64,000 bases of DNA, taken from the NCBI RefSeq assembly GCF_041248615.1, contig NZ_CP158426.1; one strand, 5' to 3'. This document shows positions 43,864 to 46,800 of the stretch, one piece after another; position 1 is the stretch's first letter; every line of letters starts with the position of its first letter. The position numbers were made by a program. This DNA is from Escherichia coli (lineage in GTDB: Bacteria; Pseudomonadota; Gammaproteobacteria; Enterobacterales; Enterobacteriaceae).

Positions 43864-46800
43864 GCTGCTCCACCCCGCGTCCGTGGATGCGCACTATACT
43901 CCGCTCGCGTTTTCATGCAACCTTTTTTTTACCCCGATCACGGATTTGGCATGATTTTGAACAAAAACAAATCACTAAAGCCTATTTTTTGTGCAAAATT
44001 TGCGTCAGGGAGAGGCTGCTCATTTCATTAAACGCGGCGGTTTGTTATCTTCGTTGCGCCTTATTTTTTAACCTGAAGAAGAGAACAATGAAAGGACGTT
44101 GGGTAAAGTACCTTCTTATGGGCACGGTTGTGGCAATGCTTGCCGCCTGCTCTTCCAAACCAACCGATCGCGGACAGCAATATAAAGACGGGAAATTTAC
44201 CCAGCCTTTCTCTCTGGTGAACCAGCCAGATGCCGTTGGCGCGCCGATTAACGCCGGTGATTTTGCCGAGCAAATTAACCATATCCGTAATTCGTCACCG
44301 CGTCTGTATGGCAACCAGAGTAATGTTTATAACGCGGTGCAAGAGTGGCTGCGCGCAGGCGGTGATACCCGCAATATGCGCCAGTTCGGCATTGATGCCT
44401 GGCAGATGGAAGGTGCCGACAACTATGGTAACGTGCAGTTTACCGGTTATTACACGCCGGTAATTCAGGCGCGCCATACCCGCCAGGGCGAGTTCCAGTA
44501 TCCTATTTACCGTATGCCGCCAAAACGTGGTCGTCTGCCGTCTCGTGCGGAGATCTACGCGGGGGCATTGAGTGATAAATATATTCTCGCTTACAGTAAC
44601 TCCCTGATGGATAACTTCATTATGGATGTGCAGGGTAGTGGGTATATCGACTTTGGTGATGGCAGTCCGCTTAACTTTTTCAGCTATGCAGGGAAAAACG
44701 GTCATGCCTATCGCAGCATTGGTAAGGTGCTGATCGACCGTGGCGAAGTGAAAAAAGAAGATATGTCGATGCAGGCGATTCGTCACTGGGGCGAAACACA
44801 CAGTGAAGCCGAGGTTCGCGAGCTGCTGGAACAGAACCCGTCTTTCGTCTTCTTTAAACCGCAATCTTTTGCTCCGGTGAAAGGGGCAAGTGCGGTGCCG
44901 CTGGTTGGTCGCGCGTCAGTTGCCTCTGATCGTTCCATTATTCCGCCAGGTACTACCTTGCTGGCAGAAGTGCCGTTGCTGGATAATAACGGCAAATTTA
45001 ATGGTCAGTACGAACTGCGTCTGATGGTGGCGCTGGATGTCGGTGGTGCAATCAAAGGCCAACACTTCGATATCTATCAAGGGATCGGGCCGGAAGCCGG
45101 ACACCGCGCAGGTTGGTACAACCACTATGGACGTGTCTGGGTGCTGAAAACCGCCCCGGGCGCAGGTAACGTCTTTAGCGGCTGATGTGATATTCTGTAT
45201 GCCGTTTTTACGGATATGACAGGGTGAGGGGTAACCTCACATCCTGATTATTGACTAAGTGCGCGTTGTTCATGCCGGATGCGGCGTGAACGCCTTATCC
45301 GGCCTACAAATCATGCAAATCCAAAATATTGCAGGAGTTATGTAGGCCTGATAAGCGTAGCGCATCAGGCATTTATGCGTTTAGGGTGAGGGATAACCTC
45401 GCCCTTTTTAATTCTGAGGTGCTATGTCTGTGGTAATTAGTGATGCATGGCGTCAGCGTTTTGGTGGCACAGCGCGTCTGTATGGTGAAAAAGCGTTGCA
45501 ACTGTTTGCTGACGCGCATATTTGTGTGGTTGGTATCGGTGGTGTCGGTTCCTGGGCGGCGGAAGCGCTGGCGCGCACGGGGATTGGCGCAATCACGCTT
45601 ATCGATATGGATGATGTGTGCGTCACCAATACCAATCGGCAAATTCATGCCCTGCGCGATAACGTTGGGCTGGCAAAAGCGGAAGTTATGGTGGAGCGTA
45701 TTCGCCAGATTAACCCGGAGTGCCGTGTAACGGTGGTGGATGATTTCGTGACGCCGGATAACGTAGCGCAGTATATGAGCGTGGGTTATTCGTACGTGAT
45801 TGATGCCATTGATAGTGTACGGCCCAAAGCGGCGCTGATTGCTTATTGTCGGCGCAATAAAATCCCACTGGTCACAACCGGTGGCGCGGGTGGGCAGATT
45901 GATCCGACGCAGATTCAGGTTACCGATCTGGCGAAAACGATTCAGGACCCGCTGGCGGCGAAGTTGCGCGAGCGCCTGAAAAGCGATTTTGGCGTAGTGA
46001 AAAACAGTAAAGGTAAGCTCGGCGTGGATTGCGTGTTTTCTACTGAAGCGCTGGTGTACCCGCAGTCAGACGGTACGGTGTGTGCGATGAAAGCCACGGC
46101 AGAAGGGCCGAAGCGGATGGATTGTGCATCTGGATTTGGCGCGGCAACGATGGTGACCGCCACCTTTGGGTTTGTTGCGGTTTCTCATGCGCTGAAGAAG
46201 ATGATGGCGAAAGCGGCGCGTCAGGGTTAAACAATCAGGTCGGATGAGACGCGAACGTCTTATCCGACCCGGTTCTGTGCTTAAACCTGCTTCGTCGCAG
46301 CGATAATCGCCTCGCTTAACGCATTTAACCCCTGGCTGCGTGAGGCGCTAAGCTGCGCACGTAATCCCAGCTCATCAAACAATGCCAGTGGTGACTGTGC
46401 CTGCAACTCGGCGGCGGTTTTCCCCTCAACGGCAGTCAACAACACCGCCAGCAGGCCGCGCACAATGCGCCCTTCGCTGTCGCCAAAGAAATGCATTTTG
46501 CCGTTTTCAGCCACTGTATATCCCAGCCAGACGCGGTTTTCGCATCCGGCAATCTCTTTAGCCTGCGCTTTTAACTCGTCTGGCAATGCCGGAAGCTGTT
46601 TCCCCAGCATGATCAACTGGCGATATTTATCTTCCCATTGCGTCAACGGTGCGAAGGTATTGCGTAACGTTTCTGCGGTTACGGTTGTGCCGAACGGATG
46701 TCCGGCGAATTGCGGGTTTGTCATTAATCCACCAATAATTCCAGCGCGCGGTCAACGGCATTCACCAGCGCATCCACATCACTCTTTGTATTATATGGCG

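What the first reader, a model, noticed from the sequence alone, without database searches (positions are those of the whole stretch)
45212..45410. REP pair flanked by two related palindromic motifs in the mltA-tcdA spacer
Besides two canonical REP units (45274..45307 and 45341..45371), the spacer carries GGGTGAGGGGTAACCTCAC (about 45218..45236) and the related GGGTGAGGGATAACCTCGCCC (about 45384..45404) on either side. The whole 190 bp therefore looks like one composite mosaic element (BIME-like) rather than isolated REPs.
Basis: seen in the sequence. Interest (0 to 1): 0.25.

Follow-up and report, generated by a model that had tools for sequence, protein, structure and literature searches.

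The report
Duplicated terminator hairpin flanking a BIME-1
The two "related palindromes" are two copies of the local mltA terminator hairpin, duplicated when a roughly 140-bp REP-pair mobile element (BIME-1) inserted there; the same whole-hairpin duplication borders six of the eight E. coli copies of this element that I examined, which gives a concrete clue to how these repeats insert and why they are lost cleanly.

Summary
AGGGTGAGGGGTAACCTCAC (45221-45240) and AGGGTGAGGGATAACCTCGC (45383-45402) bracket a Y REP, an L-type linker and a Z REP. The REP pair is a BIME-1-type element whose outer flanks are dispersed repeats. The GGGTGAGG motif is not a BIME component, because it occurs at one locus per E. 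coli genome.

The motif is the mltA-tcdA intrinsic terminator hairpin, which is single in the 75-77-bp spacers of several Citrobacter, Phytobacter and Enterobacter species. About half of 5,426 complete E. coli genomes are exactly 162 bp shorter and carry one hairpin and no REPs. All four non-coli Escherichia lineages sampled carry the long form.

Six of eight E. coli copies of this element family are bordered by an 18-25-nt direct repeat of a locus-specific hairpin that abuts both element ends. So are four inserts at the same terminator in other genera. At four loci the empty allele has one hairpin. Full-length copies (151-153 bp) have about 15-bp terminal inverted repeats with a TGACAAA core.

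The best reading is a MITE-like insertion at a terminator palindrome that duplicates the whole palindrome, later lost by deletion between the repeats. The enzyme is unknown. I could not read the 1990s BIME papers, so priority is uncertain.

The parts
44088..45185 (+). mltA coding sequence; stop codon TGA at 45183-45185
   Evidence: Annotated as mltA, 1098 nt, in NC_000913.3. Coordinates checked.
45221..45240 (+). Left copy of the duplicated terminator hairpin (AGGGTGAGGGGTAACCTCAC). The 3' stem end and the T-tract are lost in K-12.
   Evidence: Direct repeat D1. The flank alignment ends within a few nt of the left junction of the insert. It folds at -14.7 kcal/mol using alternative CAGG/CCUG pairing, with no U-tract. 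In another Escherichia lineage (L088) the left copy still reads CCTCACCTTTT.
45241..45245 (+). Junction nucleotides ATCCT. These are a decayed remnant of the duplicated T-tract and/or the first 2 nt of the element.
   Evidence: Comparison with L088 (..CACCTTTT|GATTG) and with other copies that start (C/G)AGATT.
45246..45273 (+). Left outer flank of the BIME-1 element (GATTATTGACTAAGTGCGCGTTGTTCAT). It holds the left terminal-inverted-repeat core TGAC(T)AA.
   Evidence: Dispersed repeat with 1-13 places per genome. It aligns with the left ends of the tkt, mscK, mngB, gldA, yqjFG and fepA copies.
45274..45307 (+). Y-type REP (palindromic unit)
   Evidence: 0 mismatches to the Y consensus I used. 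Internal inverted repeat I3.
45308..45340 (+). L-type long linker of BIME-1. The IHF core is degenerate in this copy.
   Evidence: Rfam RF02751 (ES036) hit at 45307-45349, 46.5 bits; the same family hits five other copies. Other copies carry ATTCAATATATTG, 1 mismatch from WATCAANNNNTTR, whereas this copy has no match within 1 mismatch.
45341..45371 (-). Z-type REP, inverted relative to Y (tail to tail)
   Evidence: 0 mismatches to the short Z consensus on the minus strand. Inverted repeats I2 and I4 with the Y unit. The pair folds as one long hairpin at -45.6 kcal/mol, z = -5.3.
45372..45382 (+). Truncated right outer flank (TTTATGCGTTT). The right terminal inverted repeat present in full-length copies (..GCnATCAGTCTC) is missing.
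   Evidence: Alignment with full-length 151-153-bp copies. The right-end consensus has 2-18 places per genome.
45383..45409 (+). Right copy of the hairpin plus T5. This is the intact intrinsic terminator after mltA, ending 14 nt before the tcdA start codon.
   Evidence: Terminator-like site with 9 pairs, 6 of them GC, a 5-nt loop and a T run. Fold energy -17.2 kcal/mol, z = -4.7. The same hairpin, T-run, SD and ATG arrangement occurs as a single copy in Citrobacter, Phytobacter and Enterobacter species.
45241..45402 (+). The 162-bp unit that is present or absent among E. coli strains (the element plus one hairpin copy)
   Evidence: 2,754 of 5,426 genomes have the long form. All 19 remaining chromosomal hits shown in a spread sample are 161-163 bp shorter. 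The three short alleles fetched and aligned (75-76-bp spacer) carry one hairpin.
45416..45426 (+). tcdA ribosome-binding site GAGG and start codon ATG
   Evidence: ORF 45424-46230, annotated as tcdA.

Best explanation
The two palindromic motifs are the two halves of a target duplication.

The older state of this spacer is most likely about 76 bp long, with one Rho-independent terminator hairpin (GGGTGAGG, loop, CCTCACCC, T5) lying about 15-20 nt before the tcdA start codon. A BIME-1-type element inserted at the foot of that hairpin, and the whole stem-loop, plus possibly 1-3 T of the T-tract, ended up on both sides of it. The element consists of an outer flank, a Y REP, an L linker, a Z REP and a second outer flank. 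It is 151-153 bp when complete and 137 bp here.

The right copy kept its T-tract and is the working terminator. The left copy lost its T-tract and is a relic hairpin.

The insert is itself a long palindrome bracketed by 20-nt direct repeats. It is therefore lost precisely by slippage or recombination between the repeats, which restores a single terminator. This explains why about half of E. coli strains are exactly 162 bp shorter.

Shown: the duplication, its exact abutment to the element ends, the empty alleles, and the recurrence of the pattern at other loci and in other genera.

Inferred: that insertion itself creates the duplication, for example by cuts on opposite strands at the base of the extruded palindrome followed by fill-in; that the short E. 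coli alleles at this locus are secondary deletions; and which enzyme is responsible (unknown).
For: 1. Allele structure at this locus. The long allele carries two hairpin copies 162 bp apart with the REP pair between them. The three short alleles fetched lack about 162 bp and have one hairpin followed by T5.

2. Outgroups. Spacers of 75-77 bp with one homologous hairpin occur in Citrobacter amalonaticus, C. sedlakii, Citrobacter sp. NCU1, Phytobacter massiliensis and six Enterobacter species.

3. The left 'unique' flank of the insert is a dispersed repeat, so the insert extends to within a few nt of the left hairpin copy.

4. Recurrence at other loci. I aligned the 40 nt left of the element against the 40 nt right of it. 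This gave a significant direct repeat that runs up to the left junction and starts at the right junction at mltA-tcdA (18-25 nt), tkt (22), mscK (19), mngB (18), gldA-yijF (25) and yqjF-yqjG (25, with 23 of 25 identical). Shuffle p values were at most 0.003. In each case the repeat is a different, locus-specific hairpin.

5. Occupied versus empty alleles. At four loci (mltA-tcdA, tkt, mscK-rsmS, yqjF-yqjG) the empty allele has one hairpin. At yqjF-yqjG only 81 of 5,425 genomes are occupied, which points to a recent insertion rather than a widespread deletion.

6. Independent inserts at the orthologous terminator. The 'Kosakonia' sp. S29 locus (L020) and three Cedecea-like species (L047, L048, L061) each carry an insert at this terminator, duplicating their own version of the hairpin. 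Sister species have the empty 71-72-bp spacer.

7. Terminal inverted repeats. Nineteen element termini align to nAGATTGnTGACAAA(C/G), with the positions G-CAAA at least 90% conserved.

8. Deletion polarity at this locus. All four non-coli Escherichia lineages sampled are long (L005, L006, L007, L088). A long allele (L091) differs from short alleles by only 4-6 of 560 flank positions. Short-allele hairpins are of left-copy type (G,A), right-copy type (A,G) or mixed (A,A), as expected from crossovers at different points within the repeat.

9. Published context. BIME-1 elements are about 140 bp and are present or absent among isolates (PMC1187871). Small variable segments flanked by repeats shorter than 30 bp are attributed to replication slippage (PMC2884548).
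Against: Two of eight E. coli copies (yfeS-cysM and fepA-entD) show no flanking duplication, so a hairpin target is frequent but not obligatory, or old duplications decay.

This copy and the gldA copy lack the right terminal inverted repeat, yet the repeat still abuts them. I cannot explain that.

The sample of eight loci was found through BLAST best hits. It is not a genome-wide census.

At this locus the polarity (deletion versus retained ancestral short allele moved by recombination) rests on parsimony and on a few haplotypes. Several of those haplotypes come from error-prone metagenome contigs.

The known REP-associated transposase belongs to a family that makes no target duplications (PMC3333891), so no known enzyme fits.

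The key older papers were not available to me: Bachellier 1997, Boccard & Prentki 1993 and Gilson 1991.
Confidence: 0.8

Rival explanations
1. The GGGTGAGGGNTAACCTC palindromes are conserved outer motifs of a dispersed BIME-like mosaic element and travel with the REPs.
For: BIMEs do have conserved non-REP motifs, and the real outer flanks of this element are dispersed.
Against: The motif is found at one locus per genome in 5,425 E. coli genomes. It occurs only twice in the 64-kb window. REP-associated metagenome hits are all this same spacer. Other copies of the element are flanked by unrelated hairpins. The hairpin exists without any REP in other genera.
Confidence: 0.03
2. Two unrelated events. 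A small tandem duplication of the terminator region occurred first, and a REP pair later landed between the two copies by chance or by a preference for sites next to terminators.
For: REP elements are known to lie at 3' ends of transcription units (title of Boccard & Prentki 1993, cited in PMC3333891). Tandem duplications of terminators are plausible. One genome (L025) has a tandem array in this spacer.
Against: The repeat boundaries coincide with the element ends at six E. coli loci and four loci in other genera. No allele with two adjacent hairpins and no insert was seen among the alleles sampled. At yqjF-yqjG the rare occupied allele differs from the common empty one by element plus duplication together.
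Confidence: 0.08
3. This rival concerns polarity only. The short E. coli alleles were never occupied. They are ancestral alleles retained or re-imported by homologous recombination, and no deletion between the repeats has happened.
For: The short allele has the same architecture as the spacer of Citrobacter and Enterobacter species. E. coli recombines freely, and the A10 (long) and SWHEFF58 (short) strains share flank SNPs, which recombination could also produce.
Against: All four other Escherichia lineages sampled are long. Short-allele hairpins reproduce the left-copy-specific or the right-copy-specific variants of the long allele. Long and short alleles sit on nearly identical flanks, with 4-6 differences in 560 nt.
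Confidence: 0.15
4. The two hairpins are a selected regulatory design, for example alternative pairings that control mltA termination or tcdA expression. On this view the duplication is maintained for function rather than being an insertion scar.
For: The E. albertii left copy has five stem substitutions that all preserve pairing: two compensatory pairs and one G-U. The K-12 left copy still folds. A conserved extended -10-like motif upstream would place both hairpins in a tcdA leader.
Against: Half of E. coli strains do without the second hairpin. The same architecture recurs at unrelated genes. The left copy lacks a U-tract in K-12.
Confidence: 0.05

Closest known systems
BIME-1 (also called RIP or RIB elements) of E. 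coli: a Y and a Z palindromic unit around a long L linker with an IHF site
   Same: It has two inverted REPs, the dispersed L linker and a single-copy (non-tandem) arrangement. It is about 140 bp, lies at the 3' end of a gene, and is present or absent among strains (PMC3333891, PMC1187871).
   Different: In this copy the IHF core is degenerate and the right outer flank is truncated. The accessible literature does not mention that the element is bordered by a duplication of the target terminator hairpin or that it has terminal inverted repeats.
REPINs mobilised by RAYT (TnpA-REP), relatives of IS200/IS605
   Same: It is a REP doublet in inverted orientation that folds into one long hairpin. It is non-autonomous and multi-copy.
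   Different: IS200/IS605-type transposition makes no target duplication (PMC3333891, PMC2817692), whereas these copies have 18-25-nt duplications. Related inserts in Cedecea-like species share the termini but show no E. coli-type REPs by inspection. That argues the REPs are not what defines the mobile unit.
Bacterial MITEs (for example Correia or ERIC-type elements): short, with terminal inverted repeats and target-site duplications
   Same: It has terminal inverted repeats of about 15 bp, flanking direct repeats, a size of 130-155 bp, a central IHF-type site, multiple copies and intergenic location.
   Different: The duplication is long, variable in length, and by inspection spans essentially a whole palindrome of the target, rather than being a fixed 2-10 bp. 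The most conserved part of the inverted repeat lies 9-16 nt inside the tip. No cognate transposase is known.
Precise excision of Tn10 and Tn5 by slippage between their 9-bp target duplications, stimulated by the inverted repeats (textbook knowledge)
   Same: A palindromic insert bracketed by short direct repeats is lost exactly, restoring the original sequence. This fits the 162-bp clean polymorphism.
   Different: Here the repeats are 20 nt or longer and are themselves hairpins. The process was inferred from natural alleles and not measured.
Class C bacterial group II introns that insert after intrinsic terminators (my recollection of Robart, Seo & Zimmerly 2007)
   Same: A terminator stem-loop serves as the insertion target.
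   Different: Those are ribozyme retroelements that insert downstream of the hairpin without duplicating it. Nothing here encodes or resembles an intron.

Membership tests
BIME-1 / RIP / RIB | One Y and one Z palindromic unit in inverted orientation | tested here: met
   Y at 45274-45307 on the plus strand and Z at 45342-45370 on the minus strand, each with 0 mismatches to the consensus sequences I supplied from memory. Inverted repeats I2 and I4. The Z1 versus Z2 naming was not checked against the original papers.
BIME-1 / RIP / RIB | Long conserved L linker between the units | tested here: met
   Rfam RF02751 covers 45307-45349 at 46.5 bits against a gathering score of 37.6. The same model hits the linkers of five other copies.
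BIME-1 / RIP / RIB | IHF-binding core (WATCAANNNNTTR) in the linker | tested here: not met
   There is no match within 1 mismatch in the K-12 copy. Eight other copies or orthologues have ATTCAAnAnnTTG with 1 mismatch. Binding itself is not testable here. The copy looks like a decayed member.
BIME-1 / RIP / RIB | Single unit (not a tandem array), about 140 bp, present or absent among strains | tested here: met
   The element is 137 bp. 2,754 of 5,426 genomes carry it, and the sampled remainder are about 162 bp shorter. The definition is taken from PMC3333891 and PMC1187871.
MITE-like transposable element | Terminal inverted repeats | tested here: inconclusive
   They are present in full-length paralogues (tkt 12 of 15, p = 0.002; mscK 11 of 14, p = 0.03; mngB 10 of 14, not significant) and in the 19-terminus alignment. 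In this copy only the left one is present.
MITE-like transposable element | Direct repeat of target DNA abutting both ends, single in empty sites | tested here: met
   (6 of 8 E. coli loci). Empty sites are shown.
MITE-like transposable element | A related autonomous element or transposase with the same ends | not tested
   No search for an IS with TGACAAA-core ends was possible with these tools.
REPIN / RAYT system | Insertion without target duplication (IS200/IS605-type single-strand transposition) | tested here: not met
   18-25-nt duplications flank the copies. The expectation is taken from PMC3333891 and PMC2817692.
Rho-independent terminator (right copy, 45383-45409) | GC-rich stem-loop immediately followed by a T/U run, downstream of a stop codon | tested here: met
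   Nine pairs of which six are GC, a 5-nt loop, and T5. Fold energy -17.2 kcal/mol. Termination activity is not testable here.
   One locus per genome, two matches in the window, and no other REP-associated hit in the metagenome scan.

The most novel reading that the evidence does not exclude
BIME-1 may be the E. coli branch of a cross-genus family of 125-155-bp MITE-like elements. On this reading the family is defined by subterminal inverted repeats with a TGACAAA core and a central IHF-type site, not by REPs. The elements integrate at the base of extruded terminator palindromes and duplicate the entire palindrome. The REPs would be interchangeable inner modules, and the mobilising activity would be a structure-specific one, acting on a four-way junction or a hairpin foot, that has not been identified and need not be RAYT.
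Probability: 0.3. Interest if true: 0.8.

Novelty: new variant of a known kind. Interest (0 to 1): 0.55.

Why it matters
How REP and BIME repeats spread has been open since the 1980s. A March 2026 preprint still calls the in vivo insertion mechanism 'not fully established' and assumes 'semi-random insertion' (10.64898/2026.03.23.713779).

A reproducible footprint makes the question testable. The footprint is a whole-palindrome target duplication at intrinsic terminators, together with terminal inverted repeats. It predicts the target (extruded terminator hairpins). It predicts the cut geometry (the base of the stem on both strands). It also predicts that the REPs themselves may not be the recognition element.

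The footprint would explain three known facts. These elements sit at 3' ends of transcription units. Insertion is tolerated because an intact terminator is regenerated downstream. BIME-1 elements are cleanly present or absent among strains because long direct repeats around a palindrome favour exact loss.

For this particular locus the practical consequence is modest. It is a 162-bp length polymorphism in the mltA 3' UTR, which is also the tcdA leader.

Tried and rejected
- Dispersed-motif idea. I tested it with a window search, a 40-nt BLAST against 5,426 genomes and a metagenome pattern scan, and rejected it. The BLAST would miss degenerate copies shorter than about 19 nt.
- Paralogous donor locus. 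I asked whether the insert plus one hairpin was copied from another locus. BLAST of the left flank instead showed that the flank is part of the repeat family, and no other locus has the hairpin.
- Ancient duplication. I first read the similarity between the E. coli and S29 left regions (GATTnTTGACnAAG) as evidence of an ancient duplication. I rejected this once that sequence proved to be the element's own left end.
- Extended duplication. I asked whether the duplication reaches the tcdA ribosome-binding site. By hand alignment, identity falls to chance about 13 nt after the hairpin, and that stretch is better explained as the element end.
- K-12 annotation. NC_000913.3 in this collection carries no repeat features for this spacer, so no RIP or REP label could be read.
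- Viral-contig scan. A scan for the left flank to find more copies gave 0 hits.
- Older papers. Bachellier 1997, Boccard & Prentki 1993 and Gilson 1991 are not held. One literature search returned only irrelevant papers.
- RAYT cleavage motif. By eye, a C|T motif at the junctions is present at some loci and absent at others, so I did not pursue it.
- Repeat D2. GCCGTTTTTA versus GCCCTTTTTA is a 10-nt, two-copy match. I treated it as chance.
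Full report
**What is in the sequence**

The window is E. coli K-12, 100% identical to MG1655 and DH1. The finding lies in the 238-bp spacer between the mltA stop codon (45183-45185) and the tcdA start codon (45424).

The two palindromic motifs are also real. The second is at 45384-45404. Read as a direct repeat they are AGGGTGAGGG(G/A)TAACCTC(A/G)C at 45221-45240 and 45383-45402, 162 bp apart.

The right copy is a 9-bp stem with a 5-nt loop followed by T5. It folds at -17.2 kcal/mol and is the only terminator-like site in the spacer. The left copy still folds, at -14.7 kcal/mol, but has no U-tract.

**The decisive comparison**

Of 5,426 complete E. coli genomes, 2,754 carry the full spacer. 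All 19 remaining chromosomal hits shown in a spread sample are 161-163 bp shorter. The three short alleles I fetched (75-76-bp spacer) have no REPs and a single hairpin followed by T5 and the tcdA ribosome-binding site.

The same short architecture, with a homologous hairpin, is the spacer of Citrobacter amalonaticus, C. sedlakii, Citrobacter sp. NCU1, Phytobacter massiliensis and six Enterobacter species. The motif is therefore the resident mltA terminator hairpin, and in K-12 it is present twice.

**Is the motif part of a dispersed mosaic element?**

It is not.

- A 40-nt probe finds one locus per genome (median 1 place, maximum 2).
- The pattern occurs only twice in the 64-kb window, even with 3 mismatches allowed.
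- Among 120 metagenome stretches containing the pattern, the REP-associated ones are all this same spacer. The others are unrelated coding or repeat contexts.

The BLAST probe would not see degenerate copies shorter than about 19 nt. The window and metagenome searches cover part of that gap.

**What the insert is**

The linker between the REPs belongs to a dispersed family: Rfam RF02751 scores 46.5 bits here and also hits five other copies. The 28 nt to the left of the Y REP, which looks unique, is also dispersed, with 1-13 places per genome and 11-12 in K-12 strains. A consensus of the right end has 2-18 places per genome.

Published definitions describe BIME-1 as one Y and one Z unit, a long L linker that often holds an IHF site, a single copy of about 140 bp, and presence or absence among isolates (PMC3333891, PMC1187871). 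This element fits. The exception is that its IHF core has decayed, while other copies keep ATTCAATATATTG.

The hairpins are simply not part of it.

**The general pattern**

I fetched seven other E. coli copies of the family. In six of the eight loci, the 40 nt to the left of the element and the 40 nt to its right share a significant direct repeat. That repeat runs up to the left junction (for the decayed K-12 mltA copy, to within a few nt of it) and begins at the right junction. In each case it is a different, locus-specific stem-loop.

| Locus | Repeat length (nt) | Element length (bp) |
|---|---|---|
| mltA-tcdA | 18 in K-12; 25 in lineage L088; 23 in E. albertii | 137 (125 in E. albertii) |
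| tkt downstream | 22 | 152 |
| mscK-rsmS | 19 | 153 |
| mngB downstream | 18 | 153 |
| gldA-yijF | 25 | 129 |
| yqjF-yqjG | 25 (23 of 25 identical) | 152 |
| yfeS-cysM | none detected | 151 |
| fepA-entD | none detected | 152 |

Shuffle p values for the six positive loci were at most 0.003, and scores between flanks of different loci stayed at background.

By inspection of the alignments, the repeat spans essentially the whole palindrome, including the A/T pairs contributed by the T-tract. I did not score this formally.

Where strains differ, the empty allele has one hairpin and the occupied allele has two:

- tkt: 174 bp difference.
- mscK-rsmS: 170 bp difference.
- yqjF-yqjG: 178 bp difference, and only 81 of 5,425 genomes are occupied, which points to a recent insertion.

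Full-length copies are 151-153 bp and end in imperfect inverted repeats of about 15 bp.

**Other genera**

At the same mltA-tcdA terminator, four other genomes each carry a 125-138-bp insert bracketed by two copies of their own version of the hairpin. These are 'Kosakonia' sp. S29 (L020) and three Cedecea-like species (L047, L048, L061). Sister species have the empty 71-72-bp spacer.

The S29 insert contains REPs of a different type, by inspection. The Cedecea-like inserts show no E. coli-type REPs. All share termini that align with the E. coli ones. Nineteen termini give the consensus nAGATTGnTGACAAA(C/G), with the positions G-CAAA at least 90% conserved. L048 has a perfect palindromic IHF core at its centre.

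**History at this locus**

All four non-coli Escherichia lineages sampled have the long form, with the same truncated right flank (L005, L006, E. albertii L007, L088/L173). The insertion is therefore old.

Within E. coli, long and short alleles occur on nearly identical flanks. L091 (long) differs from L156 and L001 (short) at 4-6 of 560 positions. A10 (long) and SWHEFF58 (short) share flank SNPs.

The short-allele hairpins are of three types: the left-copy type (loop G, stem A), the right-copy type (A, G), or mixed (A, A). Crossovers at different points within the repeat would produce exactly these.

I infer repeated precise deletion. Published work attributes small variable segments flanked by repeats shorter than 30 bp to replication slippage (PMC2884548). 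Retention or re-import of an ancestral short allele cannot be excluded.

**Mechanism**

What is shown is a long, variable-length duplication that spans essentially a target palindrome and abuts an element with inverted-repeat ends.

What is inferred is how it arises. Cuts on opposite strands at the two feet of the palindrome lie next to each other when the palindrome is extruded as a cruciform or as hairpins on single strands. Joining the element there and filling in would duplicate the whole stem-loop.

The insertion leaves an intact hairpin plus T-tract downstream. Termination of the upstream gene should therefore survive, which would make such sites tolerant of insertion.

The enzyme is unknown. 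The REP-associated transposase family makes no target repeats (PMC3333891, PMC2817692). The Cedecea-like relatives that lack E. coli-type REPs argue that the outer inverted repeats, and not the REPs, define the mobile unit.

**Comparison with what is known, and limits**

BIME-1 presence or absence among strains is known (PMC1187871). The REP reviews and mechanistic papers I could read do not mention target duplications or terminal inverted repeats for these elements. One review states that REPs lack MITE signatures (PMC3184786). A March 2026 preprint calls the insertion mechanism unresolved (10.64898/2026.03.23.713779).

I could not read the primary BIME papers of 1991-1997, so prior description is possible.

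Other limits:

- The sample of loci came from BLAST best hits and is not a census.
- Two of eight copies lack the repeat.
- Two copies, including this one, lack the right inverted repeat yet still abut the duplication.
- No experiment supports the proposed cut geometry.

**Verdict**

They are a duplicated terminator hairpin marking an old BIME-1 insertion that about half of E. coli strains lack, most likely through later deletion.

The locus itself is ordinary. The recurring whole-hairpin duplication is the interesting part and deserves a genome-wide census.

Noticed in passing
window 45186-45196: TGTGATATTCT lies immediately after the mltA stop codon and looks like an extended -10 element (TGnTATTCT). 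It is conserved in Citrobacter, Phytobacter, Enterobacter, Salmonella arizonae and Leclercia spacers. If it is a tcdA promoter, the terminator hairpin lies in the tcdA leader and would act as an attenuator. The promoter scan, which needs a -35 element, found nothing.
   Followed up: partly
L007 (E. albertii), left hairpin copy in the mltA-tcdA spacer: The left copy AGAGTGAGAAATAATCTCGCTCT differs from the right copy at five stem positions, and all of them preserve pairing: two compensatory G-C to A-T changes and one G-U. This hints that the relic hairpin is still under structural constraint.
   Followed up: partly
L190 (1,123-nt metagenome contig), about 900-1000: An ORF that I recognise from memory as PsiF-like ends 9 nt before the hairpin, and the mltA sequence is absent. 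The breakpoint therefore sits at the 5' foot of the hairpin. This is either a real rearrangement or an assembly chimera.
   Followed up: partly
L025 (Enterobacteriaceae MAG UBA5654), mltA-tcdA spacer of 639 bp: There are 4.3 tandem copies of a 110-bp unit. The unit contains a CCCTCTCCCTAAGGGAGAGGG palindrome and also a copy of about the last 25 nt of mltA including a stop codon.
   Followed up: partly
L062 and L072 (Pseudocitrobacter), mltA-tcdA spacer: An inverted pair of CCCTCTCCCTnAGGGAGAGGG-type repeats ends in GGGTGAGGG right where the terminator hairpin's 5' arm should be. This different repeat family appears to have inserted at, or to overlap, the same hairpin.
   Followed up: no
L085, L114, L117, L138, L141, L191, L196 (environmental metagenome contigs): Many chance-looking hits to the pattern actually share the context GGGAGAGGG-nn-GGGTGAGGGnTAACCTC. 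L141 has two copies 108 bp apart. This suggests an unrelated repeat family in other bacteria.
   Followed up: no
window 45308-45340: The K-12 copy of the L linker has lost the IHF core that other copies and other Escherichia lineages keep (ATCCAAAATATTG against ATTCAATATATTG). This BIME-1 may no longer bind IHF.
   Followed up: partly
window 45307-45349 and the linkers of L211, L216, L217, L219, L007: The Rfam 'sRNA' family ES036 (CssrF, RF02751) is in effect the BIME-1 L linker plus the tails of the two REPs. It is a repeat fragment rather than a single gene.
   Followed up: partly
L216 versus L220 and L221 (yqjF-yqjG): Both hairpin copies of the occupied allele have a 5-nt loop (GAACA and AAACG). 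The two empty alleles sampled have the 4-nt loop GAAG. The cause could be lineage difference, later mutation, or something about how the duplication is made.
   Followed up: no
window 1757-1792 and 59420-59456: These are two degenerate REP-like sequences, with 6-7 mismatches to a Z-type consensus. They are the only other REP-like matches in the 64-kb window.
   Followed up: no
L217 (yfeS-cysM) and L218/L219 (fepA-entD): These are full-length 151-152-bp copies of the element with no detectable flanking duplication. The fepA-entD copy sits between two co-oriented genes with no terminator hairpin. Hairpins are therefore not the only possible target, or these are old insertions whose repeats have decayed.
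   Followed up: partly
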